Shown: piece after piece, positions 1-59,782 of the stretch
How the letters are laid out: the number at the start of each line of letters is the position of its first letter
How positions within the stretch are numbered: the first letter of the stretch is position 1
Assembly (NCBI GenBank): GCA_965637545.1
Contig: OZ281501.1
Span: 11,594,001-11,658,000 of the forward strand
DNA from: Phallusia mammillata
Taxonomy: Eukaryota
Length of the DNA stretch: 64,000 nt
Direction: 5' to 3'
Made by a program: the position numbers and the translations under genes
Notes under the pieces: model-generated
Seen by the model: the letters and a program-made list of their open reading frames with translations, nothing else
What the model was told of the DNA's origin: nothing
Databases searched by the model: none

Positions 1-4
1 TCAG

Positions 5-3000
5 GAAACCCACAGATTTCAATCCCTATAATGCGCATGTTCGGTTCAGGTGGCGAAGTGTGCGTGGACTACTTTACCCGAGACAACACAGCTATCAACG
101 GCAAACATTACGAGGAATCAAGCGGACAAGTTACCTTTGAAGACGGACAGACTGTTAAGGATATTGATATCAAACTGCTGCCATACAATCAGTACACAAA
201 AGATCTGTCTTTCGTTATTGAACTTGGCTTAGCAAGTGGAGGGGCTGAAGTTGAAGGAAACTATGAGACAGAGGTTGAGCTTCGTGCTCCTCTTGACGAA
301 AACGATCCCGGGATGCTTGGATTCGAATCCACACGGACTGTCATCTCTTCAACGCGTCTACAACAGAAGAAGAATAAACCAGTGAAAATTGAGATTCCGG
401 TTCGTCGGACGATCGGTTGTCGTGGAGCAGTTGCTGTCGATTTTTTCACTCGTGACAATACAGCAGTCTCGGGGCAGCATTACGTTGAAACACAAGGCGA
501 ATTGCCGTTTGCTGCTGGTGAAATCCGCAAAAGCATTAAAGTCGATCTATTGCCGGGTTCTCACTACAAAAAGCAATGCTCATTTACTGCCGAGCTCGGG
601 GCCGCTACCGGTGATGCTGAAGTGGGTTTGTACGAAACAGAGGTGGTTTTAAACCCGCTGAGAAGGAGATCATCTGCAAGCAGTTCCAGCAGTTCGTCAA
701 GCTCATCTAGCAGTTCATCCAGTTCGTCCGACGAAGATGTGTTTCGGTCATCGCACACAGAAATTGTGAGACGGGAGATTGGAAGTACTGCTGTGATGAC
801 TGAACATAGTGAAATAAAAACTGTTACATTCACAACTTACCAGACTCAAACAACTTACGAGACCAGCATACACCGCCATCAAGAATTCGAAGGTAAATCT
901 AATTTTTCACACACTCTGTTTTAATTGTGTTTTTGCATTATGGGTACATAAAGTTACCTTGTGTATTGCGGGTTTTGGAAGGCCTGTGTAAATTACTTAA
1001 TTGATTTTTCAACCAAAGTGAAGCTTAACACAGAAAATGGTCAACCTCTTTGAGTATGAAATGTATTAAGTAATTATAAGTAACAACACTATGTTCTAAT
1101 GTGAGCCAAATGGATAAAGTCGACTTTTTGTAGTAAATGTATTAAGACTATTGTTAAATCAAACTGTCAGATTTTAAGCTTCTCTAAATGAATTGAAATA
1201 ACAATAACTTTTTCTCTTTCACAGATGATGGAACAGCTGGTGAAATCGGATTTCCAGACGAGCATTATGAATTTGAACTTGGTGTTGGCACCGAAGCTGT
1301 GGTGCCGGTTGCTCGTACTTTTGGTCTGACCGGAGAAGTCACTGTTGATTGGTTTACTCGGGAAAACACAGCGGTTGCTGGTAGAGACTTTATTGAGTCC
1401 GAGGGGCAGATTACCTTCGCTCATGGTCAGCCTTCTGCGGAGATCAAGGTCCCGTTAGTAGATCCACGAAAAACCGCAGGCGAAAAATTCACTGATCGGA
1501 GTTTTATCGTTGAGTTGGGCGAACCTGATGGGGGCGCAACTATGGCTCGCTACGAGACTAACGTAGTGATTTATGGCCCCCAAGGTGATTCCTCGGCCAG
1601 AAAAGGTTGGTTATATCAAACAAAATTGTAAAAAAGTGCACAGAAAGAATTAGCTCACACTTTGTTTACAAAATATACACAAAGAAAATATCATAAAAAC
1701 CATCGTACCAATACTCAATAATATGCTGGCAGTTAATCATTTTAGTCACAAAGTCTTCGTTTTTTTGCAATTTTAGCGTCTGGCGAGGATTCGAGCCCAG
1801 GTGAACACTTGTAGCGCCGCTTTGCTTTGGAAAATGCAATTTTTAAAATAAAAAACATAAAAAACATTGCATTTTCGTTAATTCGATTTTGTTTCACAGG
1901 CAAACATCGAGCTTCGTCCAGTCGAAAATAACCTTTGTATTACTAACTGTGTGCTTTGTAAATAACCTAGAAAAGCTACATACTTTACTTTACCATTAAA
2001 AAAGTGTTACTGTTCGAGATTGTATCTAACAACTATTCCACTAAACCTCACTAAACTTATATGTTTACTTTCGTTTTGCTATGTGGTTTATTTTTCGTAC
2101 ACTAACTTTTTTTGTCGGTTTGTTGAATTTGTGTACTAAACAACAAAAATCACCATGCAACAACAAAAATTCCAAACGCACAATAATACCAAAATTTACA
2201 ACCAGTAAACACACGTCTAAAAAACAAAAACAGAATCACTAATGGCTTGTTGTTAAATAACGCCAAAAGTTACAAACACACCTGAAGAAGTTGACATTTT
2301 TGGTTGTTTCCACGTCGTTGCTTTCTATCTGACGAACCAGGGTCTCTTCAGTGGTAGGTTTGATCAGGAATTCTATACGTCTTTGGTCTTTGCACTGTGG
2401 CTATTTAGCCAGTTTGCATTATGCTTTTATGTCTATCTTTTAATTAGTAGTTGTTACTTTAAGTGCAAAATAGTGGTTAACAGAATAGCTATGTCTTATA
2501 CAGCACCCACAATTAACTTTCGATTTTCATCACAGCTCGTTTGGTTGCACCAAAGAATGTTTCCATTGACGTCAGTAGCGCAACGAGCTTCTCTGTCACG
2601 TGGGAACCACAGGAAGCCACAGTCCACGAGTATCTCGTAAGTATTTTTTTGTGTGTTCGCAACCAAATTTGTACTTACATAAGAGCGGGAAAATGTTGTT
2701 GGATATGTAAGTGCATATATGTATTACATGGAAGTCTGATAAGAATATTCCTGTGCGATAAACATGTGTTGCAGCAGTATGTGTCCGCAAAACTCTGTTT
2801 GTGGTGTTTCAGTTCGTGCGTGATTGTGTATTGAGCAACAAAATCCTCAACACTATAGCCAAGACAAACATCGCCTTACTTTGACTGCTGAACAATTACC
2901 AATTACGCTCCTATGTTGCTTTGGACCAGGTTTCGTACAAACGAGCAGGAGATGCAGACGAGCCACGTCGTTACACAGTTCCAGCCAACACACACAGTTT

Positions 3001-6000
3001 CGATGTCGCTGATGTTCAGCCTGAATCCGTATATGCAGTTGTCGTCTCAGCTCTAGGTGACGGAGGCCAGCAAGCCTCCAGCGCTGTTATTAGCTGCAAA
3101 ACTCCAGGCAAAGGTATTCTGTTTTTACATAAGTAATTTTTTCGTATTTTAACCCGCCATTATATTTCAGTACCGGGACCACCTAATCGTCTGGCATTCC
3201 AAGTTCTCTCCCCCACTTCACTACATTGTTCGTGGGGTGAACCAGCTGTAACGCACGGAATAATCGTCGGCTATGAAGTCGTTTACAAACCAACTGGTAA
3301 AATATACTTATAAGGTTTAATCTACCTTGTATACCAAATGTCATTGGAATGTCGAAAATATGTCAAACTCTTGCTGAACTTTGGCTGTGTAAATACGCAA
3401 TATAGATATTTTGAATCTAAATCCATAATACTGATTAGTTACAGAACTGAAAGAAAATACTTTATTCTTTTGTAATATTTTTGTACAGTTTAAGAGCGTT
3501 ATACAGATGTTAGAACTGCGAGTCTTTGCCATTTCGGAAGGTTGCTTAGAGTTTTAATCTGACTCTTTTATTGCCAGATGATAGCGAAAAACAAGAACCG
3601 CCGGTAATGATCAAAATTCCGGATGGTCATTACCGTTCCCTGCTGGTGGAGAATCTGCTTGAAGATACAACTTACATGTACAGTGTTAGGGCGCAGAACA
3701 GAGCTGGTACTGGACCACCGAGGGATGCTACTATGAAGATTGAACAAGTGGGATCCAGGCCACCATCAGGTAAAAACTAATCTTGTAATGTTACGCAATG
3801 TCCACCATGAGTAATTGAGTATGTATTACTTCGTTTCTTTTCACGTTCTGAAAATAGATGTGTATGTTAAAATGACTTTTTTGTAACTAGTATTTGTTTT
3901 CAGCCATCTTCCTGGATGAAGAGAACATGAAAGCGATACAGGAGCAGATTGCTTTGGAGGAAGCTGTAAGGAAAGCTAACAGAAGTCGAAATGTGTCCAA
4001 CGTGTCGGACGATAGTGGAACAAAGGTATAGTATTGGCTGCATGTTTTTATACCATTATATTGACTGATTTCGTTAACCATGTTTTTTTATGTTAATAGT
4101 GTAAAAAAATAACTGTTTATTTTAGATATCAACTACTGTACGCCATGTACACGAACCATCAATGGAAACGAAAACCAAAACTGCTACTAAGACTAGGGTC
4201 ACAAGGTACACATCTAATATTGCGCAAAAATGCATTACGGTTTTCAGTTAAGAATACAACCAATAAATGAACTCAACGTTAAGGTACATTCACAAAGATG
4301 GCCAGACCGATCCTGAGGTTGAGACGGTTGAATACGACGGAAGGTTATCGCAAGAGGAGCTTTCAAAGTTGGCCGAAAACAGTCAGCGTATAGAGGTAAA
4401 ATCACCACCAAAGCAGTATAGTTAAATCTTAGCAATAAAACCGAAGTTTAAAATAAAGTCAATCCACTAAACGGAAACAAAAACTAAACCACAAAAAATG
4501 TTCTTCTCACAGTGTGGATCGCCGCTTCAGGTAAACAAAACACAGTTTATGTTTGAATGTTGTTTTTCGACTTTATTTTGTATTTCGTATTTTACACTGG
4601 CATGGAAGTTTCTTATATTCGCCTTGGTGCAGTTACACATAACGGGGGACACCAGTGGTGTAAACTAACTGTGGAATGCGTTTTTTGATTATCCCGAAAA
4701 GTTAAAATGGTTTAACCTTTGTTTGTTACAAAGCATGATGCTCGGTCAGTAACAAAGAATGTTTTCAGTTTCTGTTGAACAGGTGTGACATAACTACTGG
4801 GACAAATATTTTTTAGAGAAGCGTGACTCTGTTTAGTTGTTCTGTGGTTTATTGTTGCTAACTGCGTGGTTTGCATGATATTAAAGAATACATTTTTGGA
4901 AGAGGATTGTGTGGTTTCAATGTTAACATCCTGTCTAATGTATTCAACAGTAATCATAATTGAACATATTTGTATGATACATATGCGATTCGCGCTAAAG
5001 CGCCAATAACCTCAGCCATTTTTTTAAACTTCGTGTATTTTCAACAGGTGCAAGTGATTTCATACAACACGTCCACTAGCAGCGCCACTGGGCCGGGTTA
5101 TTCGTCTCAGACGTCGACCACGAGCAAGCCACAGTCAGAAGTAGGCTACGTGAATCCTTACCCACAGGAATACATGAACACTGATGTGCGAAAGGACGTC
5201 TCACAAGACACCCAGGTGTTTACTGATGTCGAGGAAACAACCGACGGAGATGTCGATGTAAGTAAAATCACACAATCACAGAAAGAATAAAAATACATTT
5301 TTGGAGTACACATGCTCTTCTAAAGATGTAAATGTTACATTAAAAACTAAGCTTTGGCCAATATCACTACGACGTTATTTTGTGCCGGCTGTCGGGCATT
5401 AAGAAACAAAAGCGACGCATTGACCAGACCACTTCATGTGTTTATGTTAGTAATCCCGGCATTGGTAGGCTTTCAAGTTTTTAGTTTTTCAAAGATTTGG
5501 TCCATCATGAAATGCACAATTATAACTGCATACCGGCCACAGAGAGCAGCGACATCCGCTTGGAAAGAACCTCTTATATCTTGAACTAAGCAAACCGGCC
5601 AAAGTTTCCTGAACAGATCCGATAGAAGTTGTCAAAACCCTGCAATTATAAAACGACTACCGTATAGCAGGAGGCGTTATATTTGGTATGCTGGGAACTT
5701 TATTTCTCCGCGCGCCGTTACCCAACCAATAGTTACACCCGCCCACCTACTTCACACCACTGAAACCGAAGCGTTGGGTTGAATGACGCCCAAATAATTA
5801 CCCTGTTGTGGACATTTGCATCTCCTCGAGGCCGGTCAGTGACGTCTGTGGCTAGGCAATTTGGTACCGGTCTTACTGGATCACACCTTCGAAAAGCCCC
5901 ATTTAAAATACAATGCTAAAAATCGATTTGAAACAACGCCAAAGTTTACGTAATCGCGTTGTCTTGGAGGGCGTGAGATCAATTATTAGGTTTGGTGCTT

Positions 6001-8224
6001 AGATTATTACAAATTTTATCAGTTAATCTACCGGTCATGACAAATTATAATTGGACCACACAGTTAACTACACATCTGACGTTGGTACTAACTAATATTG
6101 CAAAAGTTCTTAACTGGGGGTACGTATATACCCTAGGGGTGCAAAACACCAAATAAGGGGTACGAGATAGAGTTTCCATATTAGGCTTTTCTGTCCAAAA
6201 TTATTGTTTTAGTGTGGTTTAGAATATTTCAAATAACATGCATAAAACGCAACTAAATCTGTAAAAAGGCTGTCAATTGGACTTCAGAATGTTATGTCAA
6301 TTACTATTTCAATTGACTTCCATCAGTTATTGTAGGCAACGACTATGCAGGTATTTTGCAAAAGCTTAACAGTACGACGAGCGCCCACTGAATTAATGTA
6401 ATAAAAAACTGCAATTTACCACTACAATGACGCCCTTAGTACTCCTATCCCTTAAAATGTTCTATTTTAAATTCTCACGCAGCAATTTTTCGTTTACTTA
6501 AAAGAGGCGGCCGGGCTTTGAAGAACACAGCCATAGTGTTTGCAGACGTGGCGCCAGTTCCCTGATGCAGCAAATTCGCTTTTCAATTAGTTTTTCCAGG
6601 GCACATAAACGTTAGGGTCGGCCAAAAATATTGTTCGTGTTCTACGATATTTTTTATCGATAAGCTCAGATAGTGAGTATTTCGTATCGTTCTCACTATC
6701 ACTTGCTGACAGAATGACAGGACTAGAGTAAACCGGTTTTAAAACGAGACATAGCCCATATCCGCACAAAATCCGCAACATTTTTGGTGAAATCGTATTT
6801 TGGTGCAAGTTGCCGCAAATTAAGATCGCAGATTGCAAGTTACCGCACATTAAGATCGTAAAAATTAAACAAACGGTAAAGTAAACAAGCAAAAATGTTT
6901 CGAAACATTTACTGCACTAGAAAAAAAAGTCACCAATCAACTTTGCAGTTTTACCACAAAAAAATTGTGCAGAATTCTTCGCGTAAATAATATTGTTTCT
7001 GAAATGATGACAGTGCACCAAACAGCTATCATAGCCTCTAGCAGGACTAAGAACGTCAGGCATTTAATTTCCGTTGCCAACAGATGTCTTATTACGACCA
7101 CGATTTTTGACATCCAGTAATCATTGCGATTGGCAACATTGAGCGCCAATTAAGGTCATGCATTCGCTTAAAGTTAAACTTAAGTTAACGCCTTTTCTCA
7201 ACCCTGCGACGTTTCAAAACTTGCAAATAGTTTGCAAATAAATCTTGACCAAGCCCAATATCGACTAACCGCGGACCTGGGAATTAACTGAAAGTTAAAC
7301 AGCACGTTAGTGTCGTAGATCTTAACATTAGGGAATTAGCTTTCAAAACGATCGCACTTTTTCCATCCCGAGAAATGGTAATCGTTTCCGTCGACTTCCA
7401 GTGCCGGGTACTAACAGTCCCTAAAAACAGTTTATTAACATCCCACGTTCTAAATACACACCCACGTGACATGGCGCGACGTGCTGAATTGGGTTTGGTC
7501 GTAGCAATTTGTGTGAATGCCTAATGTCAATGTCAACATAAATTGCGCATTTAGTCGTAAGTGTAAGTTACTAGGCGCATCCGCGGTTTAAGGCAACGTT
7601 TTGTGACTTGTTTACGAACGAGTCCAGTTGTACGAAACCTGACATTTATTTTGATGCTCACTTTACAATTTATTTGCATGTTGAACTTCGCAGTCCTAAT
7701 CATCCTTCAAAACATTTAAATTGTTACGAGTGGTTTGTTAAAATAAGTTTGAATTTCTATTTTCAAATCTTGACCTTTCGTGTGCTTCAAGTGGCCTATT
7801 ATAAATTGTTAGGAAATTTGTGCTGCATACCAGCAAACATCCGAGTGTTGTTTATAGTATTTAGCTATTATATCATTGTAATATCATTGGGTATTCTCCC
7901 ACTTTAAGTTGCAACAATGTTATTGACCAGCACAGTAAGATACAGTTTGATGCACAGTAAAATGAACTTTTTTTTGCAAAAACGAATATTTTTTGTCTTT
8001 ACTTAACAAAGACAATTTTGAACATTGTAACACCCTTGGATATTTAACAAATCAAACTGTTGTTGTTGAACGGAAATTGCTTGTTTTCGAAGGTTACGAC
8101 CATCACCAAGACGTACAGAACCACAACAACTGAACGTCGATTGGAAACCACTTCAGGAATGAAGTCGATCGTGCTTGCTCCAGACGGAACATCAATCGAG
8201 CAACAATACGGCGACCAGCAATGA
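5..8224 (+). CDS. ITGB4: Integrin beta-4-like protein, cytoplasmic 3' part (at least 3 Calx-beta domains, one FnIII pair, Thr-rich tail); 5' end lies outside the window
   Basis: Hand-joined GT-AG exons 5-892, 1225-1584/1605, (1777-1800), 2536-2636, 2930-3113, 3171-3296, 3578-3769, 3904-4025, 4126-4205, 4284-4395, (4513-4530), 5048-5257, 8093-8224 (TGA). The Calx-beta motif V.VD.FTR.NTA..G..Y/F.E..G...F..G occurs three times. The second FnIII (PGPPNRLAFQVLSPTSLHCSWGEP...LLVENLLEDTTYMYSVRAQNRAGTGP) closely resembles the second FnIII of vertebrate beta-4 as recalled. Calx-beta followed by FnIII is the beta-4 hallmark. The ectodomain is not visible. Confidence 0.8.
670..729 (+). repeat. Coding poly-serine tract between Calx-beta domains
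   Basis: RRRSSASSSSSSSSSSSSSSSSSDED is encoded by mixed TCN and AGY codons. Confidence 0.85.
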
Positions 8225-9780
8225 GTCGAGCAATTACTCGACAACCACTCGGCTCCGAACTAACCGCTGCAGGCAAACGCTATTGGTGATGCTCGAAAAC
8301 AAATCTGAGACTAATAACACGTGCAAGAGGCGGATCACTCGTTGGAAAAGCTAAGATGGTTTATCAGTTAAAATTGGGCCGTCGGCGTGGAGCCTTGAGT
8401 GCCCTGTTGACAACCTCATCCTCGGATTTACAAGTTACTGCTTTTATTACCACTACGTGTTCACACAAGTAGCAAGACTTCTTTGAATTGACCGCCAAAA
8501 GGGTGATGCCTGTCTTCTCGCACTTAACGCCACTTTACGTTGCCTCATTACATCACGCGCACCTTAAGCTATTAACGTACATTTCTAAGGCTCGAAAGTG
8601 ACGCTCAAACCGTGTCATCTTCAGCTATGGTACGAAGTGGGAGTCGTCCCATTCAGTCCAACATAAGATTGCCACCTTGTCACAATTAACTGCGCTCTTT
8701 CGCACGAGTGATGATCCGTAAAACACAATTGGTTCCCATTTTTGTTTGGGCCTCCCGCCTCGATTTCGTTTTGTTTAAACCAAGCCCATGGGAACTAAAT
8801 TACTTTTTTCGCTTTCAAGCAGGCAAAATATAGTACAATACGCAACTGTTCCTTATTACAATTTCCGAATATTGGCAATATATGTGTACTAATATCTACA
8901 CAAGTTTTATTCCTACATTGCTATTTTACCCGCCCCGACGTAAATGCATGTGATGTATGTGAGGATAAGATGTACATATCTTGCGTGTTTTTTAATGGTA
9001 TTCGTTGGAAGGTAGAGCCATGCTTTGAAGCACTGCCAAGGCTAACATTGTACAAACGCCAAGGCGAAAATTGTTAATCCCAATGTTTTTCTACTATCGC
9101 AGTTGTACAAAAATGTGTTGCATGAGATTTTTCGTGTGCCTGAAGAATGAAGTACTAACAACGTATTCCCTAATGCATTTATTAGAGTATTAGCGCTAAT
9201 GGATTGTTGGATTTTTGCGAAGCTTACATTACACCATGCTATAACGGTGAAAACGTGTGCAAGAAGTTGGCAGAAAATTAAATAGGTGAAAAGAAAGTCA
9301 GATACCGTTGGATCGTATTTATACTAATTTGCTATACCAGACTGACCACGTGACCAAAGGGTTTTCAGTTTAACGCTTGTCGACAAAACTTCAGTCAGTT
9401 ACTGCTCTTAAGCTTGGGTCTGCGAGAGCAAAATTCCTTACGGTTTCAACAAATATCTTTGAACACACCAAACTTCCGTTACAATGCGGTACATAGTATG
9501 TTTTACATTCCGTTTCAGGTAAAATACCATTCCTGTCACATTACATAGTTCGGTATAACGCCTTTAATAGGCCTGGCGTCCTGTGAACACTATCACATAG
9601 ACAAAAAGCGCTGATTCTGTTTTCAATGAGTCAGTTTTACAAGATCCGGTCCTTTTTTTAACAGAGTATCACCAAATAGACTTCAATTCATGCGTCTTGC
9701 GTCAAAAGCAGCAAAGATAACAGTTCAAAGGTAAAGAAATAATTGTGAGAACTACTGTAACAAAGGCAACTAAACACGTA

Positions 9781-9868
9781 GATTCCGGACGTTTAGAGAC
9801 GTTTGTTTTTTAAATTTTGCTCCGGACACAGATTTTTCTCCCAAATTCCGGACGTCTGGTAACCCTTA
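9781..9868. mobile_element. Single end of a degraded hAT-like DNA transposon
   Basis: Three TCCGGAC subterminal motifs end in TCTGGTAACCCT. No partner end or TSD was found. Confidence 0.4.
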
Positions 9869-10695
9869 ATAAGCGTGCATATAACCATGGTTTTCTGTTC
9901 TCTTCATAACTCTACCCGCAAGTGCAAGACCACTATTCAAAGCTGAGTTCAGAAAAAAAGCTAACAAAGAAGTAATGTCAGTGGTAATTTTATTGTGAAC
10001 ATTAAATTCATCTGTGCCACTTGGCATCTAACGATATGATATATTATTCGCAAAATAGAAATGTGTAATCAACACTTTGTATTGACAAAAAAACACAATG
10101 AACAACAGTGTATAAACTCTCGTCGGAATGTTTGATGTGGCCTAAGTCAACCAGTTATTAAATCGAGGCTGACAATAGCTGTAAAGGTCACACGTATTGC
10201 AACTGGGTGTTAAAGATGCTAATATCAAATTTGAGCCGAACCAATGGTTGCCGAGCAGCATTTAAGCAAATTTAATTATATTAAATCTTTTTGCAAGAAT
10301 ACAAAACTTAACAAACTATTTCAATGAACGTGGATTGTTGTGAGCCTTATGGCAGGTGCAATGAATGCTTCTCAGTATTTCGAAACATAGATAAAGACGG
10401 AAACACAGTGTGCAAATAAAGAAGATAAACAGCAGTGAACGAAAAACAAGTTACTCATTGAAAACAACCGAATACGAAATACGAGTGCGGTGAGAAATTC
10501 ATAAACATCAATTAATGCCGCGCTTTTAACGGCAAAGCTCTTCGGTCAATCTTATCTCCGATCTATTATTGCTACAACGTGCAATTAAAATATCCATTGA
10601 GAAGTGCATCGTGTGAGAATAGGTTTTTCGTCGATGACCGACCGCCGTAGGGACATGTGGGTTGGGTGGAAATAGAACTTTCGCGTTGTTGATCA

Positions 10696-12808
10696 TCATA
10701 CGTAAAACTCCACACAGCCGTTCTCCTCGCATGACTTTGCAGCTCCCTCTGAGATTCGATAATCGACACTTTCCGGGTTTGTGGTGTGGTGACCACTATA
10801 GCAGTGACCTGGAAATCAAATAGACGTATTAACATAATGGCCTATTTCCAACACCTGCTGTCTACCCCTATACTGAAAAGGTATTGGCACTCCTTTCCGC
10901 CAATTAGGTTAAAGGTCGGGTGCTATTAAAAAGTGTTCTGCGAGACTAGTGCGCCCTGGTACCCGGTTTGTAGTGAGACATGCCGCATACTTCCCGGCTG
11001 ATGGCAAGAAGCATTAAGCGAATTCCGATCGGACAGTGTTGCCAAAAACGAAAGTTTCGTAAATATTATTCGGCCATTATCACCTCCAACTTGTCATCAA
11101 CACCAAAAAGTGTCGTCGCTAGGACCATTACGGCCAATCAGACCTGTTGCGGCGGCCCGCCACTCTGTAATCAAATCGCGCACACTCCCACCTGTTAGAA
11201 GTGAGTTTGTCGATTCCTCGTAGAAATCCATTTTAAGGAGACGAAATCCGGTCTTGCAGCATTGACACTGGAAGTTTGCTCCCTCGTTATCCTGGCCCAA
11301 TTTATACACCATCGACTCGGGATGGGGCAAAAAGCACCGGCCGCGTTCATTCGGGTTATAACTCTGTAACAAGCAAATTTACAGTTTGAATATGCAACTA
11401 ATGCAAAGCTTACATAAAGTAACCTTTTGGACAATTCATTTACGGCCCTAATGTAAGTTTAAGTATAAAAATATAAAAACTTCATTTAACACACCTTGTG
11501 GCAACGGACGCAGTGTGACATAACTTGCTTCGCAACAGTGTCTGGGATTAGTACAGAAAGTGCTTTGATGCATTTCGGGTCTTTGGAATCAAGTTTTTCT
11601 CGCAAAATTCTCTTGAGCTCTTTTGCGCTGCAGCCCTCCAAGTATTCATCAATCCGAACAGCATCGTTGATGAGGGATTCGACTTTGGGTATGGGACTGC
11701 TCGAGGCATTTGATCCCACTGTGGAAACCGATGTCCGCCTATCATGGATCTTTAATGACTGAAGATCACCGATTGTTTTGGAAACTCTCGGGACAGGCAC
11801 CGGGGCTGGTACGGTGGGTTGAGGACGTTGAAGAACATGGCGATGGCCTGGATAAGTTTCCTGAGTTTCGAGCATCGGCTGGGTTGTGTTTGCAGCATAC
11901 GACTGATCACTTGGAAAACTATCTTCGTCTGCATCAAAGTCGATCTCAGTAGATATGACGTAGTCGGCCACAGCAGGGCCTTTGACTGGTGTGAAAATAC
12001 TTGAGCTGACATCTGACAAATCGCTACCACTAGTTAGTCGCTGATTTCGGGGAACTACCGGGGTAAATGCGGACTTTCGCGAACCATCACTTGAAATCAG
12101 AGGCGATGGGGTTTTGTGTTCGGTCGGGTAAACCGCAGGAACGCGAATGGGACTGACTTGTGTGCTGTGAGATTGAAAGTTGTAAGGGGAAAGTTGTTGT
12201 GGAAGGTCCTTGTGAGTCTTTGTGAGTTTTAATGTTTTCGGCTTCTTCAATATTCCTCGCTTTCCGGACTGAAACGATTCGGTCTCGCTACTATCAGCAT
12301 CGTTGTAGTTGCTAGAAGCTTTCCAATTTTTAGAGAGGTGCAAGGGGTCGTAGTATGAACCTCGGTTGTCGAATTCGTTGCCAACGTAGCAGTAGCCACT
12401 TGCGTCGTCGTCTGATTTTGTAAATGACGGTGTTGGCGAGGGGGTCATAGATACTGAGGTCATAGCAGAGCTGGGATCGACGTATTCTTGATGCTGCGGA
12501 TGATCGTACCACAAATTGTGTTGATGGGCTTCCGTAACATGTTGCATGCGTTTGCCGTGGGCGACCCGGGAGGTATAGGCGCCGTGTGGGGCCGCGTACA
12601 GATGGAAGGCTTTGTCCGATGTCATTTGCTTTAGAGGTGAATTAGTACCGTCGTCACTGGAAGTTGTGGTGGAATATCCGCTCTCACAAACGTCGTTAAA
12701 CTTCACCTTGCGTTCGCTGATCTCGACTTGCCGCAATCTTTTGTTTTTTTGATGGTTTGCGTTAAGGTGCTGAAGCATTACGTTACTGGTTTGAGATATA
12801 GACGTCAT
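10696..12808 (-). CDS. Uncharacterised ~532-aa protein: low-complexity S/T/P-rich region plus a C-terminal Cys/His (putative zinc-binding) domain
   Basis: Exons 12808-11495, 11363-11192 and 10808-10696 join in frame with GT-AG introns (1599 nt). The C-terminus reads HCVRCHKSYNPNERGRCFLPHP...FQCQCCK...GHCYSGHHTTNP...SCEENGCVEFYV*. An AG acceptor lies 2 nt before the ATG, so an additional upstream coding exon is possible. Confidence 0.85.
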
Positions 12809-13440
12809 GCCTATAAATGCTGCAAAACACAAATTGATAAAATTAAGTATTGCAAACTCAAAGCCAAAAAATGCGATTTTTACAAAAAGATTAAGCTGGA
12901 ACCTTATTTAAAATTTGCGAACGCAATAGTAGCCTACAGGATCGATACTCAAATATCTTTTGCATACTGATTCTTGCCATGCGTATCTTGGAGTTGTTGC
13001 CGTATAATTTAGAAATGATATCCCGGCGAAATAAACGTGACCAACAACGGACGCAATCCAAAATTAGGTCTGAAGTGCACTTAAGCCTACACACTGTGTC
13101 AAATGTTGTGACACAGCGTGCCACTCTCACTTGGGCGCTTGTGACTCGTACCACTTATGTGGCAACCAACTGGTTTCAAACCACGCAAAATCAATTGTCA
13201 ACAAACACTTTAGCCACACTAAAGCTGGGAATGATCTTTCTCCACTGTTACTCATGTTATACATAACTTTCACACCATTTTGAATCAAAAATGTTTATTT
13301 CCACTTCAATACCTCGCCAACATTATATTTTGCAAAGCGTTGATTCAAACGTCTGCTCTCGCGGTCAAAGAATTCTGTCTGCCACCCGCCGGGGCGTAAC
13401 AGGCCGCACGAATGAGGTTAATTCGGGATGGCGTGCGACG

Positions 13441-13448
13441 ATTTATAA
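13441..13448 (-). promoter_or_regulatory. Candidate TATA box for the minus-strand Cys/His-domain gene
   Basis: TTATAAAT on the minus strand in a locally GC-richer segment about 630 bp upstream of the acceptor at 12811. Motif evidence only. Confidence 0.3.
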
Positions 13449-16400
13449 GGCCACTCGAAATTTACTTCCTCTCGTTGCACAAGGCAGCACAACGTAGTAG
13501 TGATCACTGGGCTCTGACTCTAATGCGCAGGTTTCACTGAAGTCGCTTTAATTATGACCGGGCGAGTGCTTTGCGATCGTACCGGGATCCGCACAGCCCT
13601 CCGCATTCTCATCATAATCAACTTCATTAATAACACCATGAATAAACTGCTCGCGCCTATTTAACCGTATAATCTTGCGCCGGAACGCTCAGTAATGTTA
13701 CCACTAATCTAGTCGAGGCACGCCTATTCCGCACTTGCTGACGACTATCCTTGTTTATTGAAACGCCGACTAAGCACTTTGCATGAATTGAGTTCAGTCT
13801 CGTATATCTATGCACGTGGCGGTTATTGCCTGTATCTGTCAAAGGGCGTGTCCGACAGCGGAAACAATGTTGGAATTCTTTGTCATATTAGCTTTACAAT
13901 ATCCCCTGCAGATTATTCTGTGAAACAAGATTAACCTGGCAGTCTCCTTGGTTTATTTTGTTAGCCCGGGCGTGAAAAGTTCACCTACCTTCGGCGATAA
14001 GGCGATTATGGTTAAACGATTACGAGAACGAAAAATAATTACTTCACTGCTTGTTCAATGTGTTCCTACGTCATTGTACAGGCATTGCAACATGAGTGGC
14101 CATTAAAAAAACAGATCACAAGTTAAATTGCCACTTGCATCTTAGTGATAACAACTTCAACACGAGAGGACTCCGTGGTTTAGTAACGCATTTATTGCAA
14201 TTTAACGCATTGGTAACTCAAGATTTAGCACATAATTCTTGTGGCAAATTGCTGGTTGCTACCTTCAAAGAACTGTCCGCTGCTCAGGATGGCAAGGAAT
14301 TTCGATTTTCAACACCGTGGTCGCACCTTACACCTACTCCGGTGACAGATCTGACGCCTACAGCCGCCAATTGTGGCGACGCGCCCACCAACAAGCTGAA
14401 CCTGGCTGTCATACGAGCAAATTGACTGCGGCTCGCAAATTTGCAGAAAAGCAATCGCGAAACCTCTTTTCAACCAAATCTGCCAATTGCACCACCAAAC
14501 AACCTAGAATCGGCATCTCATTACAAGCTTCCGGCATAGTCGGTAACAAATCAAACTGTCAAGACAAACTACCACAGTTGCACTGTTGGCGAGATTTATG
14601 GCGCAGGTGCATCTTATGCTTGTGCACAGTGACGGCACGTGTTGTCTGCCTATAGCTCTTGCGCAAGTCGTATGGAGCCTCTAAGCTCTGTCGCAGCCAA
14701 GTTCATAACCTGTGTCGCAGATTAGGAAGAGCCATACACATACAAACTCTCCGCGTAGTAACCGAGATTATCCCAATGCGAGCGCACACAGCGAACCAGC
14801 GTAACGTTTTAGCTATGCTTTGCGCACAGCTTAACGAGTTGCAGGGACGCTTACGACATTTCGTGACCTCGGATTCGTCAACAACGAAAATAAGTTGGTT
14901 TTTGCATCAGCGACACTGCCGTGTTGTCGCAGCCGTGACGGTCATAACCTCGATTAGCATTTAAAATAATCTGTCCGCAACTCATCAACGCCCACTTTTG
15001 TGGTTGCATTGATTCATGGACTCACGAGTAAGAAATGGGCTATTAGCTTGCCTCTTCAGTAATCATATTAACTCTTGTGCTATGTTGATGTCCTAATTTC
15101 GAATCCAGGCACATGTTGTTTATGAGTATGCCGAAAGATAACATGTCAACGGGAGCCGATGTCCATTTCCGTTAATCAGCAACATTTCACATTTGACACT
15201 TAAGTTACCGCGTTAATTCCCACAGATTAAGCTGTGTTTGTATGCAACGTGCGCAGATGTCACTAATCTAAGGAAAAATATTTCTAATTCTGACTGCACC
15301 AATCTCGTGGCATTGCCTTGTATTTCGAGGCCAAATGAGATTAGCTGGTCAAGTCGTGAATTGTTACGTCACGCAATATGTGACCTCTTCTGCACTTCGA
15401 CGAATTTCAAAACAAAACTTTCTCACTGCGTCAGTAATTCCAATTTTGTACAGTTCCTATTTACAGACATATGTCTAACTCTAAACTACATTACGTGCTC
15501 AGATATCTGGATCAACAAATTTTACATTTAATTTACATTCTCAACAATTACAGCACCAATCTCTTAACGCATCCAACACAACACTATTCTCTAAATGTCG
15601 TACTGAGTTAACTGGTGCACTGAAACATATTGCAGCACGATAATTCCGACTTGCCTCCCCTAATCTGCGCCTGAATGAGTCTGTTGTAATAAAATGGCAC
15701 CCCGCTGAGTTGTGTATACGAGCATCGGTTTAACGAGCGACACGCCTATTGTGACGTTCCATCTGTGCCATGGTGATTCACTAATTTCGGGTTACTACTA
15801 CCAAAGCGAACCCGAAAATTGTCAAACGACTGCTTCGTAACCACTGCTGTGCAAACAGACGCGACGTAAGGGGGCTATGAACTAACATGACTCGATGTTG
15901 TTGTGTATTATCGTACTTAGGCGATAAAAGGGAAAAAAACAACTTTCTAAACCTCGATCCTTTTCTCTTTTCCCAACGCAAAAAAATTACCTGGGCGTAT
16001 ATTTCATGGTAAAATGTTTTACTTGAAGGTCTTAGATAAGCTGAGTCACGTTGTGCTACGAATCGCAAGATAATGCAAAATGATCGTCGTCTGTTAAGTT
16101 AACCGACAAAATCTGACTCTACAAATTCGACATTAGTGAACCTCGCGACACCTGCTGGGACAATTACAGCTTCTACTGCCATTGTTCTTGACCTTCGACC
16201 CTTTAACTGCCATACACGATGACAACCAAGTTGGAAGCTACCATCCACGTACTTAAACACAGTGCGCATGTTTGGCAGTGACAAGTTAAACGCTAGTGGC
16301 GACAGGCGGTAAATAAACAACGTGTCGTTCTGGCAGGATAAGTTCGCAGGAAAGTAGCCAATTGCGCAGATTGCCGTGAGCGATGTGGGCTGACCTTTCG

Positions 16401-47510: not shown

Positions 47511-50500
47511 TCACATGTCTTGCGTTCGCACAATTTTTGGCTCGCAGAGTCGTTGAACAAAGGCCTCTCTGTCAGCTTGGGAAAGGTTCAATAAATTGTC
47601 ACATGGACAGGAGGATTCTAGAAGACATTGACTACGTGTTGTTACGCCAGTGCGTTTTGCAAATTGGAAACCCGATCTTTTCGACGTCGTTACAGACGTG
47701 TTGTTGTTGTTACTTGCATTGCGCATCGGTGCCATCTCTTTGGTCGGTGAGTTCAGTTTGCTCGCGGACGACGACTTGCTGCCAGGCAACAAGCCGACGA
47801 GAAGACTTTCCAGCGGACTTCTTCGACTTGCGACTTCTCTGTAAAAACTGGATCGCAGAAATCGAGGATACGAGTCGTTTTCCATGATGTGAAAGATTTT
47901 TCGTTGAGCTGATTCGAACACGTCGTTAGGCAAGGGGTCACCGCATGTCACGGACAAGGCGACTTGTCGTTGTGTAATGTGGTCGATATTTACCTGCATA
48001 ATCAAATAACGTTGTTACGCTTATGATGTAATAACAAAGTTCCCAGTATAACGCACAGTCGGTAACCATCCAAACCAAATCGTATTGCATCGTTTAAAAC
48101 AAACTAGCAATTCACAGAAATGTTTTAGCTGGTGTAGCATATACGTAGACAGTTTACGTGGGTCATTGGTATTTGTTGCGTCTATAAATAACCGTTTGCC
48201 ACAATTTAACGCATTTGATTGCACAGACAAACAAAACTGAATCTAAATGAATTGTATCTAACCCTGCACGTACGCAACGCACACTATATTTATCTCAGTG
48301 GTTTTGTGACTAATCAGCCTCGAGGTTATTCGGTGGCTAACGTGACATAACGTAAAACACTTCTGGTGCTACGTGCTATTTTGAACTGTTTTTGTTTTTA
48401 CACTCTGAACTCGGAATGCGGGGAACTATGACTGTACTGTGGAATTGACAGTCAAATGACCCCGATTTCTCAATAAACCCAACACACCAGCAGCGATCAG
48501 TCCTAACCAAATTAGGTTAACAAAACGGGAAAATTAAGAAAATTACCTGGTGGGGAGAGCGGGATGAAATGTACTGCTGGTAAATGTGCTCTCCTTCGCG
48601 AAGTCGCTGGTCAGCGGTCTTCAGTTTTTTGAATTTCTCGCAAGAGCACCAGAACTTGAGATTTTCCGAGCTGTATTCTGAGTCGAGAAAGTCGTGGAAC
48701 GCCATGCGCATTTCTGCGGGAAAGCAAATAGGTTTATACGTTGGTAGAACATCCGGTAAAATATCAAGTAGGTGGATCTCATTACGGTGTGTTGTTTCCC
48801 GGATACCCAAACTCATCTAATAATATTATCTATTTGTGACGCACGTCACTGTACGCCCACTAATTTCACACTAGTTTAGACTTGCTTTTCTTGCGAATGG
48901 ATTACTAAGCATCTTAAAATATTATAGCCATATGGCAGCATCAAAACTTACTTTTGTTATCCAGTGTGTTTAAAAGTGATGATGCCTCATTAGTGCTTGT
49001 GTTTTGTGGTCTCTTCATGATGGCTGAAGTAAAAAATGCCGAAACTGGTCTTGAACGTTTGTTTGAAGAACCAGGTGTATCAGGCCCTCCAAACGTTGAT
49101 ACGGTTTTATCGCGTCTCTGCAGAAAAATATAATGTTACCAGATTGTATTCACTTATTTGTTGGATGATCCCAACCCAAGTTGATACACAAATGTTGTTA
49201 CAATTATTATTCTTTCAACACCTGAGCTAAGGTTTCATCACGCTACGAATTATCTTACCAAAAAGCAACTTAAAGGCAAGTGTAAACTTACGGGTGAATT
49301 ATTTGTCTTCTTTTTTCGAAGTCGGACTTGGCTTGTGCCCTGTAAGTTTAAATCGCTCGGTTCCGACTTCTGTCGTTGCTTAAGGTTCGAAGTGTCGATG
49401 ACAGTTGATACGTCCGAAAGTAGAGGGGCGCTGTGTCTACTTAAGTTTTGCTTTGAGGTTCCGAGACAACTCGTATCTCTTGGAATCTGACTGTCGCTAA
49501 TCCGTTTTTGCTCAAGATCGTTTGACAAGGCTTCGTCTTTTTGACCAGCGTACCAGGTTGTGCGTCGTTGTGACAAACTGTCCTCTACGTCAAGAGTCTT
49601 TATTGTAGGAATCACTGATTTTTTTTCAACTTCTTCTACTGAAGTCAGTTTTCGATATCTACCGTGGCTACAAAAACAAAACAAACATCTGTATTTAGGT
49701 TTGCTCAATAAAAAACTATTTTGCTAAGGCTAGCGCTCCCTAAGGCAGCGGATGCGAACTGACGCGTCTGGTGCGCAACACGTCGCTATATATAACCTCG
49801 CTCTGACGTCACGAAAGCGGCAGACGGTGAAGTCGAGTGCTCGTCATGAGCTCTAGGTAACGCAACAGGCGTTTTCAACAAACACTTGCGTGCCTGGAAT
49901 GCAAATCAAGCTCATGGAAAGACGCAGCGTGACGTGCATCCCCTGTCAACTTTCTATTGTTTTTGTAAATTTGAAGCAACCGCGCAACAACGTATTGAAA
50001 GTTGCGTCATGCATTGTTGTGGCGTTTCTTCACCTAAATAACTTCGGGTTGCTGTTTCTAAGTCATCAAAACACTACTGCAAATTTACATGAAAAACATA
50101 TATCGAGGAGAATAGCCAAAATATAGAAACTGAAAACACTGTTTAAATTTGGTACATTAAACAGTTTATATAGGTATCATACGCATGAAATACGTATGGA
50201 GTTCGTATTATGATCCCAACACGTTTTCGACGCATATGTTTCCGAACTTGTTTTAAGCGTATTTCCTTATCTAGCTGGCATGTATTGGTTGTTTGGCATG
50301 GTAGCCATCCACTCAAATTTTGATTACTGGATGTTTTTCAGCCAAACGGAACACTTCCAAAGTCGATTACCCGAGGTCATTGCCTCCAACGTGGCCAAAA
50401 CACGTCACCACCAGTGGCCAACATTGCTGCAAAGCTACTGGGTCGAAGTGAGCGTAAACAACCCAATCTTGGTATTATTTAAAGACTGTTTATGATTTCA

Positions 50501-57600: not shown

Positions 57601-57944
57601 GGTCATTTGCCCGGAGGTGCTTAAACATTTGTGGGTTGACCGGTTTCGAATGTCGACTTCGTTCAAATGTAGCAGACACTTTTGTTTTATTTTCGTTATC
57701 TGCAAAACTGCACACTACAAACTATAATCTAAGGTAGCCACAGTTAATAGCACATGTCAGGATTTTACCTGCCAGCATTTCGCATCAAGTTTAACCTGCA
57801 AGCTTTAAGTTCGAAAAATAATATTTCTTTGTGATAGTAACTGTTTTTGTAACAACAATTTTTGTCCTAGGTAAGGAAAAATGTGACTACCGCAGTTAAC
57901 GTATTATTAAATGGAGAGGCTTACAACATGAGTCTGGTTCTAAG

Positions 57945-59782
57945 ATGGCATATGACAACTACCAAAGGCACGGATGTGCATCGAACGTTTTCATTCTAAA
58001 CCGAATAAAGAGAGTTGCAAAATTCGTAGTATGTCTTTTGACTTTGACTTACGTCTGCAAATCGGCAATGACCTTTCGGGGCCAGCAAACTCAAACCGTA
58101 TTAACACTGGATTTGAATTCCTGGGAACTGTTAAAGGAAGGGGATCATTTTGAGCTTCGACCAAATGAAGACGTTTCTCCGAAGTTCCTTTCCAATAACA
58201 AACCATTTAACGTGGCCAAACAGTCTACAAATGTAATTTTGTCAACGGCCGAGGCACCACTAAAAGCTAAAACAACGACAAACAACAATCTGCCTCCAAC
58301 AGAAGAAAATGTTTTTTTGAGAGATTTATCATATTCAGTGCTTGGCAAGGACGGAATAATACAAAAGGCAGAAGATTATCAGTATATACTGCTTGTGTGG
58401 TGGCCACCAGCATACCTTGCTAAAGACCGAAATTTTCTGGAAAGAAATTTTCAAGGGGTCTGTGGAAAATGCCGATTAACTATGGACAGACGATACCTAA
58501 ATAGAAGTGCGGTTGTGCTGTTTGACAATGTACCGACGAAAGAAAATCTCGACGATCTTCCTTTGGATATTTCGAGGTTTGAAACATAGCTTATAACGCA
58601 TTATTAGAGGACACAAACGTTTATTTTACCATTGAAAAACCAAAAATGATAAGCAGCTTGTTCTTTTATTTATTGGATATAATTTGCGTGAATATAAGTT
58701 TATGTTTTTATTAGTGACAAGCAACCTTACTGTGACGAAAACTATGCCAAAGGCATAAAACATAATTATTTTGTTATTAAACATTTCGACAGTAGATTTG
58801 TCCTTGTCGTTGGAAGAATGGCGGTCAGTCGACTAATAGCGTTTCTGTTTAAAGTTTAAACTAATATTTTCGGAGCATAAACGTTTGTTTAAATAAATAT
58901 TATAGGCTCATATAGTACTAAATTGACTAATTTTTCAGGCGTGAGGACCAGGTATACGTTTTGTGGCATCGCGAAACACCTTCAAAAACCTATCACCTTC
59001 GAAATTTTATGCGAGGAACATTTGACACCATGTTTAACTACACAATGTCATACAGACGCGATTCAGACATTGTATGGTATCTAGGCAACACCCGGTATGC
59101 TATGAAGACAATGCCGTATCATTTTCTGAACCAACCAGACAAATATATTGACAAAGCGATGAAAGCAAAGCGACAGCTAGCGGTGTGGGTTGTAAGCAAT
59201 TGCAACAACACTAGAGGCGCCGTTGCACGTAAAAACTACGTTGATAAACTAGTGGCTGCTGGACTAGAAATTGACATGTTCGGTAGATGCTTCAACAGAG
59301 CAGTGCCCAAGAAGGATTTCTACGAATTTTTGGCGCCGTACAAGTTCTACCTGGCATTTGAGAACTCGTGGCACTGCCCCGATTATTTGACCGAAAAGTT
59401 TTGGCGCAACGGGCTCATGGCTAACGTCGTTCCCGTGGTTTGGGGTCCGTCAAAGGAAGACGTAGCTGCAGTGGCACCGGAACATTCATACGTACACGCG
59501 GAAAATTTTGATTCCCCAGCGGATTTGGTGAAGTATTTGCATGCGTTGGACAATGACAATTCCCAGTACAGAAAGTTCTTCAATTGGCGACGCCGTGGTT
59601 TTGAAGAAGACAATAACCAACCGATATCCCTTATGAGGCCTGGTTATGAACCTGCCATGTGTAAATTATGCATGCAACTAAACAAAAACGGCGGTAAGCT
59701 GCCACCTAAAACGTTAAAATCTTCAATGTCGTGGATATTTGGCGACGATCCCCAATCTGCATGTTTGTTAGATACTAAATAA
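57945..59782 (+). CDS. Alpha-1,3/4-fucosyltransferase (GT10 family), 491 aa, type II membrane protein
   Basis: Exons 57945-58576 and 58939-59782 join in frame (1476 nt). There is an N-terminal hydrophobic anchor, and the motifs FNYTMSYRRDSDI, AVWVVSNC and YKFYLAFENSWHCPDYLTEKFW (the alpha-1,3-FucT motif). Confidence 0.95.

What the first reader, a model, noticed from the sequence alone, without database searches (positions are those of the whole stretch)
5..8224. Integrin beta-4-like tail with Calx-beta expansion and only one FnIII pair
Seen: at least three tandem Calx-beta domains, separated in part by a poly-Ser/Thr-rich linker, then two FnIII domains, then a T/E-rich tail to the stop. No second FnIII pair is recognisable in any exon found. 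Known: the vertebrate beta-4 tail has one Calx-beta and two FnIII pairs; the first pair binds plectin and the second binds BP180/BP230 in hemidesmosomes. Inference: an invertebrate-chordate beta-4 that keeps the plectin-binding half and amplifies Calx-beta, suggesting a simpler or differently regulated intermediate-filament anchoring complex.
Basis: partly seen in the sequence, partly recalled or inferred. Interest (0 to 1): 0.7.

Follow-up and report, generated by a model that had tools for sequence, protein, structure and literature searches.

The report
Giant-tailed integrin beta-4 of a tunicate
This is the last part of an integrin beta-4 gene, likely from a sea squirt, whose inside-the-cell tail is predicted to carry 23 calcium-exchanger-type (Calx-beta) domains, with 31 more on an optional block of exons, where textbooks give the human protein one; it keeps the three residues that human beta-4 uses to grip plectin, so it likely anchors the cytoskeleton at the end of a long spacer.

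Summary
The window is the 3' end of a roughly 50-kb integrin beta gene; signal peptide, vWA, EGF, beta-tail and TM exons lie 33-42 kb upstream, and the ectodomain groups with vertebrate beta-4 (SH-aLRT 99, quick tree). My model gives a 4,234-aa form with 23 cytoplasmic Calx-beta and four FnIII domains. A three-exon cassette, including one 10,305-nt exon, holds 31 more Calx-beta (54 in all; 7,909 aa if included). In 7 of 7 RNA-like runs the window's FnIII exon is joined to an exon 13.1 kb upstream, skipping the window's three Calx-beta domains; their join to the FnIII pair was never seen. The terminal pair is FnIII-1,2-like and keeps the R1225, E1242 and R1281 equivalents. No FnIII-3,4 exists: the last intron is spliced straight through in 4 of 4 runs. 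The acidic Ca2+ loop is missing in 53 of 54 repeats, so the array is likely a spacer, not a sensor. By-product: vertebrate beta-4 appears to hold a second, split Calx-beta at about residues 752-985. New variant of a known kind.

The parts
1..892 (+). 3' end of cassette exon 2, a 10,305-nt exon (G000:C8:11584588-11594892) with 29 Calx-beta domains; the last two lie here. Most of the gene (69 core exons from C8:11551928, cassette exon 1, and 9.4 kb of this exon) lies upstream of the window
   Evidence: 3' splice seen in 6 of 7 RNA-like runs; 5' acceptor predicted only
661..892 (+). Poly-Ser then Thr/Glu-rich linker at the end of the giant exon
   Evidence: Sequence
1225..1584 (+). Cassette exon 3, one Calx-beta, phase 1-1
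1585..1631 (+). Read-through into the intron, ending at TAA 1629-1631: possible alternative end of the cassette form
   Evidence: Contigs of X1, X2, X3, X13 continue here; frame
2536..3113 (+). FnIII-c (FnIII-1-like), exons 2536-2636 and 2930-3113; acceptor 2536 is joined to C8:11583432, 13.1 kb upstream
3171..3769 (+). FnIII-d (FnIII-2 orthologue), exons 3171-3296 and 3578-3769; R1225, E1242 and R1281 equivalents at codons 3188-3190, 3239-3241, 3634-3636
3904..4025 (+). Exon homologous to the first part of the vertebrate connecting segment
   Evidence: Global alignment beats 1000 of 1000 shuffles
4126..5257 (+). Low-complexity tail exons 4126-4205, 4284-4395, 4513-4530, 5048-5257
   Evidence: Joints; translation
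8093..9250 (+). Last exon: coding 8093-8224 (TGA 8222-8224) and 3' UTR to about 9250
   Evidence: (contigs end 9223-9253)

Best explanation
The locus encodes an integrin beta-4 orthologue whose cytoplasmic tail is predicted to be a chain of at least 23 Calx-beta sandwiches that likely acts as a calcium-independent spacer, holding an FnIII-1,2 module that likely binds the actin-binding domain of a plectin/dystonin/MACF-type plakin, as in a type II hemidesmosome. Shown: domain content, the exon joins inside the window, the skip over the cassette, the missing FnIII-3,4, the kept contact residues. Inferred: one transcript from ectodomain to tail (contig length, open 79-exon model, relatives); pairing with a laminin-binding alpha chain; plakin binding; a rod of roughly 100 nm (23 domains) or 240 nm (54), using a recalled 4-4.5 nm per domain. 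The optional cassette would either lengthen the spacer by 31 domains or end the protein before the docking module; which of the two is open.
For: Ectodomain, TM and Calx-beta exons are collinear on one strand and join into 4,234 aa without a stop, with 76 of 78 introns GT-AG and 2 GC-AG. Run X3 has one 13,895-nt contig with 11,619 nt up to the skip junction; the model's coding length to that point is 11,428 nt. Relatives P0003, P0147, P0128-P0130 and locus L028 run ectodomain/TM straight into Calx-beta. Tree: gene + 4 relatives + 8 vertebrate beta-4 on one side of a branch, SH-aLRT 99; the genome's other four beta loci fall outside as 1 + 3, the pattern reported for Ciona (PMC1145181). FnIII-d: 77 bits to FnIII-2, 65 to FnIII-3, 41 to FnIII-4, 13 to FnIII-1; 42 of 100 identical to FnIII-2. 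R1225, E1242, R1281, the three beta-4 salt-bridge residues with plectin (PMC4353693 figure legend), align to R, E, R. A plakin gene on C5 has CH, plectin-repeat and GAS2 hits on one strand, and its CH1 keeps the three partner residues (numbering inferred from spacing); beta-4 binds both plectin and BPAG1-n ABDs in two-hybrid tests (PMC2171291). Acidic E-F loop motif in 1 of 54 repeats against 14 of 26 and 8 of 17 in two ADGRV1 proteins. A three-domain super-repeat folds as three all-beta domains, pLDDT 87.8, matching the beta-4 Calx-beta crystal structure at TM 0.91 (target-normalised), rmsd 1.2.
Against: No binding, localisation or protein-level evidence. The 11.6 kb of the X3 contig upstream of the window was not aligned: only 30 letters of it were seen, and the match is by length. 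In X1, X2, X11 and X13 the contig starts only 2,290 nt upstream of the junction and in X5 2,057 nt, so a shorter transcript without TM is not excluded. The plakin contact residues are also present in MACF1, so they are not diagnostic, and the one ABD-bearing plakin found looks like a spectraplakin, not plectin. On raw tblastn scores vertebrate beta-4 vWA prefers the C3 locus over this one (242 vs 220, 238 vs 225, 230 vs 181), and an annelid beta chain scores 97 bits with the vWA exon, inside the beta-4 range; only the tree and the tail resolve this. The tree is the quick search, has long branches and holds no vertebrate beta-1/2/3/5/6/7/8. The extreme C-terminus shows no significant likeness to the vertebrate C-tail (378 of 1000 shuffles as good), and S1364 aligns to Asn. 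pTM of the three-domain model is 0.54, so the rod geometry is not established.
Confidence: 0.62

Rival explanations
1. The cassette is an alternative 3' end: transcripts that take the giant exon keep the intron after 1584, stop at TAA 1629-1631 and give a receptor of about 7,500 aa with 54 Calx-beta but no plakin-docking FnIII pair (or are degraded). This rivals only the reading of the cassette, not the 4,234-aa form.
For: 892->1225 is spliced in 6 of 7 RNA-like runs, but contigs run on past 1584 in X1, X2, X3 and X13 and joint 1584->2536 is in 0 of 7; intron 893-1224 has zero depth in X3, X12, X13 while 1585-2535 has patchy cover up to the next exon; AATAAA at 1847 and ATTAAA at 1995.
Against: Donor 1584 is a phase-1 GT that fits acceptor 2536 and inclusion is stop-free; contigs drop rare branches; introns 4531-5047 and 5258-8092 also have patchy cover, so unspliced precursor can explain it.
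Confidence: 0.4
2. The cassette is transcribed from its own internal start and makes a soluble Calx-beta polymer, separate from the integrin.
For: Its 5' junctions are predictions only; 24 of its 31 repeats form their own group (support 85) and lack the introns of the core repeats.
Against: Both upstream cassette exons have phase-1 acceptors that fit the core donor 104 nt away; the self-trained exon finder scores the first cassette exon highest of all; no hydrophobic signal segment in the cassette.
Confidence: 0.12
3. The array is a Ca2+ sensor or buffer, like the NCX regulatory domains, that switches the anchor on and off.
For: Closest solved folds are NCX/Calx CBD1-2; some core repeats have scattered acidic residues in the loop (mean 2.35 per 10).
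Against: The loop motif is in 1 of 23 core and 0 of 31 cassette repeats (mean 1.39 acidic per 10) against 4.2-4.8 in ADGRV1 and a bacterial-type control; vertebrate beta-4 Calx-beta also lacks it (0 of 3) and is called cation-independent in a reference title seen. Only one of the ligand loops was scored.
Confidence: 0.1
4. The giant exon is an assembly artefact that multiplied a short repeat.
For: It holds four near-copies of a 1,032-nt unit.
Against: The copies are 91-96% identical with both silent and replacement differences; most repeats are far more divergent; a DNA-like run has a 3,441-nt contig over window 1-1724 and RNA-like contigs reach 2,977 nt upstream of the window.
Confidence: 0.04

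Closest known systems
Vertebrate integrin beta-4 (ITGB4) of alpha6beta4
   Same: Ectodomain clade, juxtamembrane Cys cluster, Calx-beta then FnIII-1,2 then connecting segment, R1225/E1242/R1281 equivalents, and (found here) a split first Calx-beta.
   Different: Tail of about 3,450 aa (7,100 with cassette) against about 1,000; 23-54 Calx-beta against one recognised; two extra single FnIII domains between Calx-beta repeats; no FnIII-3,4; C-tail likeness not significant.
Ciona intestinalis Ci_beta5 (PMC1145181; passages read)
   Same: Called the beta-4 orthologue among five beta genes (1 + 3 + 1, as here); short Calx-like ORFs were noticed within 10 kb 3' of the model.
   Different: That paper could not determine the tail; the passages read give no count, FnIII content or splicing. 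Its sequence was not compared here.
Type II hemidesmosome (alpha6beta4 + plectin, no BP180/BP230; PMC4452579, passages read)
   Same: Lacks the BP antigens, whose binding domains are the ones missing here; the plectin-ABD site is kept.
   Different: Vertebrate type II uses the full tail; here the BP-binding domains are absent from the gene, and the ABD-bearing plakin found has a GAS2 hit downstream.
ADGRV1 (VLGR1) and sponge aggregation-factor Calx-beta arrays
   Same: Long tandem Calx-beta arrays.
   Different: Those are extracellular and ADGRV1 keeps the acidic loop in about half its repeats; this array lies after the only TM segment, so is cytoplasmic, and lacks the loop.

Membership tests
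Integrin beta chain | Signal peptide, PSI, vWA with MIDAS, EGF repeats, beta-tail, one TM | tested here: met
Integrin beta-4 orthologues | Ectodomain groups with vertebrate beta-4 | tested here: met
   SH-aLRT 99 in a quick tree of 32 rows without other vertebrate beta chains; vWA exon 91-110 bits to the vertebrate beta-4 rows shown against 72-83 to solved beta-1/2/3/6/7/8; tblastn alone did not separate it from the C3 locus
Integrin beta-4 orthologues | Cytoplasmic Calx-beta followed by FnIII-1,2 and connecting segment | tested here: met
Integrin beta-4 orthologues | Plectin-contact residues R1225, E1242, R1281 in FnIII-2 | tested here: met
Vertebrate-type beta-4 tail | Second pair FnIII-3,4 | tested here: not met
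Vertebrate-type beta-4 tail | Conserved C-terminal tail | tested here: inconclusive
   No better than shuffles (84 and 246 of 500; 378 of 1000)
Hemidesmosome integrin | Binds laminin with an alpha6-type chain, binds a plakin, sits in a basal plaque | not testable with these tools
   Only a candidate plakin ABD was located; alpha chains were not examined
Ca2+-binding Calx-beta (NCX CBD1 type) | Acidic E-F loop | tested here: not met
   1 of 54 repeats; loop position taken from the NCX alignment; the other ligand positions were not scored
Calx-beta fold | Beta-sandwich matching solved Calx-beta domains | tested here: met
   (predicted model of 3 of the 54 repeats)

The most novel reading that the evidence does not exclude
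A multi-Calx-beta tail is the ancestral state of integrin beta-4: tunicates stretched it into a titin-like intracellular ruler of 23 to 54 domains whose length is switched by one 10-kb exon, making a receptor of up to 7,909 aa, while vertebrates cut it to two domains (one of them split and so far unannotated in ITGB4) and added FnIII-3,4 by copying FnIII-2 to recruit BP180/BP230.
Probability: 0.4. Interest if true: 0.82.

Novelty: new variant of a known kind. Interest (0 to 1): 0.7.

Why it matters
It answers a question left open in PMC1145181 (does the tunicate beta-4 have the long tail?) and would date the plectin-type docking site before the tunicate-vertebrate split. It contradicts Table 1 of PMC11788884, which lists Calx-beta + Integrin_B_tail (ITGB4) as a domain pair of vertebrate origin. 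It gives an integrin with a cytoplasmic domain three to seven times the size of the vertebrate beta-4 tail, itself described as uniquely large, and a testable idea for what beta-4 Calx-beta domains do (spacing, not Ca2+ sensing). It also predicts a second, split Calx-beta domain in vertebrate beta-4 (about residues 752-798 plus 930-985), which would help interpret that poorly annotated region.

Tried and rejected
Search with the giant exon (1,731-5,511 aa candidates, top 7,981 scored) gave only 20-28% identical bacterial-type Calx-beta proteins and ADGRV1 among the 120 listed, no close relative; proteins above 5,511 aa were not searched, so existing long tunicate gene models are not excluded. 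The vWA 'longer' search stopped at 2,000 aa. No run is on record as RNA; seven are treated as RNA-like because they show GT-AG joints that run X10 lacks. X5 has no cover of window 1-2240; this is not counted as absence. Contig depths were not used to rank isoforms. The 5' junctions of the cassette and the upstream exon joins have no read support here and remain predictions. The automatic exon model (86 exons) had wrong frames in the EGF/TM exons and small low-scoring exons, several inside a hAT-type element; I replaced or dropped these by hand (69 core exons), including one 57-nt exon at C8:11575271 with score 11.5 that may be real. One donor (C8:11564384, GC) is uncertain. C-tail homology: not significant. 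The Atlas gave only generic Calx-beta clusters below 0.9. The downstream part of L028's contig was not obtainable. No complex was predicted, because FnIII-d is split over exons and the pair would pass by likeness to solved structures. Earlier-findings look-ups returned nothing. DOI 10.1107/S0907444909018745 is not held.
Full report
Observation. The window is G000:C8:11594001-11658000 of a 240-Mb genome. Frames at 1-921 and 1227-1583 hit Pfam Calx-beta (two and one stretches), four short exons hit fn3, and two tail exons hit nothing.

The gene. Integrin_beta exons lie at C8:11554685-11556696 on the same strand, with PSI, EGF, beta-tail and a TM exon around them. A self-trained exon finder, corrected by hand, gives 69 core exons from the start codon to C8:11583432, three cassette exons (360 + 10,305 + 360 nt, all phase 1) and ten exons in the window. 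Both chains are stop-free: 4,234 aa without the cassette, 7,909 aa with it. Upstream parts in C8 coordinates: signal peptide to first beta-tail exon 11551928-11559968; TM exon 11560485-11560682; split first Calx-beta 11560929-11562260; 20 tandem Calx-beta 11562326-11580791; FnIII-a, Calx-beta, FnIII-b, Calx-beta 11580929-11583432; cassette exon 1 11583537-11583896. A profile built from the repeats finds 55 hits, two of which are halves of one split domain: 23 Calx-beta in the core and 31 in the cassette. Order after the TM: 21 Calx-beta, FnIII-a, Calx-beta, FnIII-b, Calx-beta, [cassette], FnIII-c, FnIII-d, 232-aa tail. A phase-1 intron lies within 8 aa of the start of 19 of 23 core domains. 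The upstream exon joins are predictions; another species' locus (L028, 47-85% identity per exon) shows the same exons in the same order from vWA through TM into the split Calx-beta, and unnamed relatives P0003 and P0147 carry ectodomain, TM and 3 and 5 Calx-beta hits in one frame, both apparently partial; P0147 aligns collinearly with my residues 953-1668.

Splicing. I laid 8 of the 20 runs listed: seven RNA-like from three studies and one DNA-like. All nine introns between 2636 and 8093 are bridged by contigs; 5257->8093 is direct in 4 of 4 runs, and the micro-exon 4513-4530 is real. In 7 of 7 RNA-like runs exon 2536 has the same 5' loose end, which maps once in the 92 kb searched, to C8:11583402-11583431: the 13.1-kb cassette region is skipped. 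Run X3 holds a 13,895-nt contig with 11,619 nt up to that junction; my coding length to it is 11,428 nt, leaving 191 nt for UTR or small exons. I take this as a full-length transcript, by length only. The cassette is processed too: 892->1225 is spliced in 6 of 7 runs, but 1584->2536 is in 0 of 7, and contigs in four runs continue into the intron, where the frame stops at 1629. The DNA-like run shows no joints. Whether the cassette lengthens the tail or truncates it is therefore open.

Identity. In a quick IQ-TREE search of 32 ectodomains, the gene, four unnamed relatives and eight vertebrate beta-4 chains are one side of a branch (SH-aLRT 99); the genome's other four beta loci fall outside, one alone and three together (those four rows are partial). 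PMC1145181 (passages read) reports the same 1 + 3 + 1 pattern in Ciona, names Ci_beta5 the beta-4 orthologue, and says its tail could not be determined, though short Calx-like ORFs lay 3' of it. That pattern is my basis for calling the organism a likely ascidian. Against a simple reading, tblastn with vertebrate beta-4 vWA scores the C3 locus higher than this one in 3 of 3 queries, and the tree lacks the other vertebrate beta chains.

Which FnIII pair. Profiles of the four FnIII domains from ten vertebrate beta-4 proteins score FnIII-d at 77 (FnIII-2), 65 (FnIII-3), 41 (FnIII-4) and 13 bits (FnIII-1); FnIII-a and -c score best with FnIII-1 (31, 24), FnIII-b is not assignable. PDB searches agree for the first half-exon (32.4 bits to FnIII-2 against 23.4 and 22.1). 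The plectin complex has three salt bridges, through beta-4 R1225, E1242 and R1281 (PMC4353693, figure legend); P0172 shares that numbering and all three align to the same residues in FnIII-d. The next 46 residues align to the connecting segment better than 1000 of 1000 shuffles (8 of the 10 proteins used), though S1364 aligns to Asn. The C-terminus is not significantly like the vertebrate C-tail. No FnIII-3/4 exon was found in window 3770-14000, and the second FnIII-d exon has one match in the genome. FnIII-3,4 binds BPAG1e and BPAG2 (PMC4388270, passages), so that site is absent.

Partner. The genome has five plectin-repeat loci. One, on C5, has a CH hit upstream and a GAS2 hit downstream on the same strand; a CH1 exon is near-identical to MACF1 and plectin and the three partner residues are kept (numbering inferred from spacing). 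These family searches score only the best candidates, so a true plectin is not excluded. Beta-4 binds the plectin and BPAG1-n ABDs but not dystrophin, actinin or filamin (PMC2171291, passages).

What the repeats do. The acidic loop after strand E, placed by the NCX alignment, matches [DN]D-x(2-4)-E in 1 of 54 repeats, against 14 of 26 and 8 of 17 in two ADGRV1 proteins and 14 of 27 in a bacterial-type protein. In the giant exon domains start every 111-133 residues, with a 344-aa three-domain unit repeated four times at 91-96% nucleotide identity. One unit folds as three beta-sandwiches (pLDDT 87.8, pTM 0.54) that match NCX and beta-4 Calx-beta structures. I infer a calcium-independent spacer; its stiffness and length are not shown.

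By-product. The tunicate profile hits two separate half-domains in the membrane-proximal region of 10 of 10 vertebrate beta-4 proteins (20.9-28.9 bits; best of 1000 shuffles 8.9), and an independent profile from ADGRV1 and bacterial-type repeats does too, more weakly (9.4-16.1; best shuffle 7.1). A model of P0172 residues 752-1106 has strands at 755-798 and 930-985 around a low-confidence insert (mean pLDDT 62.8) and aligns over 218 residues, model 3-355, to the tandem NCX1 CBD12 (Z 14.8, rmsd 12.4), while its first 236 residues align alone to beta-sandwiches at Z 7-8, rmsd 2.7-3.6. Papers read in passages list one Calx-beta (PMC4452579; PMC4388270; PMC4030831).

Novelty. Nine full-text searches (listings and the passages cited) turned up no description of this tail; subscription journals and database gene models above 5,511 aa were not covered. 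PMC11788884 Table 1 (passages; supplements not read, and its filters are described there) lists Calx-beta + Integrin_B_tail as a vertebrate-origin pair, which this gene contradicts. PMC11670116 was read in passages. The gene family is known; the architecture is a new variant.

Noticed in passing
P0172 residues 752-985 and nine other vertebrate beta-4 proteins: A split Calx-beta-like domain precedes the recognised one in vertebrate beta-4.
   Followed up: yes
G000:C8:11576390-11576676: The skip-form contig starts at about the same point, 2,290 nt upstream of the junction, in X1, X2, X11 and X13 (two studies); by my model about 10 nt before the exon at 11576676. A polymorphism, a branch or an internal start could explain it.
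   Followed up: no
G000:C8:11563467 and 11564384: Two predicted GC-AG introns in the core model; the second is uncertain.
   Followed up: partly
G000:C8:11578200-11579600: Decayed hAT-type transposon inside an intron of the Calx-beta array.
   Followed up: partly
G000:C8:11542689-11548484: BEL/Pao-type LTR retrotransposon frames (385 and 1,546 codons) about 3.4 kb upstream of the start codon, and a further hAT-like element near 11538400-11540100; named from the translation by eye.
   Followed up: no
G000:C5:15359200-15469100: Spectraplakin-like gene with CH, plectin repeats and GAS2; four more plectin-repeat loci on C1, C2 and C5 without a nearby CH hit.
   Followed up: partly
P0150: A relative that groups with the beta-4-like clade on a long branch but has a low-complexity tail with no Calx-beta hit; may be loss or an unspliced translation.
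   Followed up: no
window 11489-12907 (-), 47514-48014 (-), 57900-59779 (+): Neighbours: a 473-codon frame without Pfam hit, an RGS-domain exon, and a GT10 fucosyltransferase gene.
   Followed up: partly
core Calx-beta 6, 11, 22, 23 and cassette Calx-beta 25: Several repeats carry poly-Ser or Ser/Asp-rich insertions in the same loop where the first domain is split; possible phosphorylation sites.
   Followed up: no
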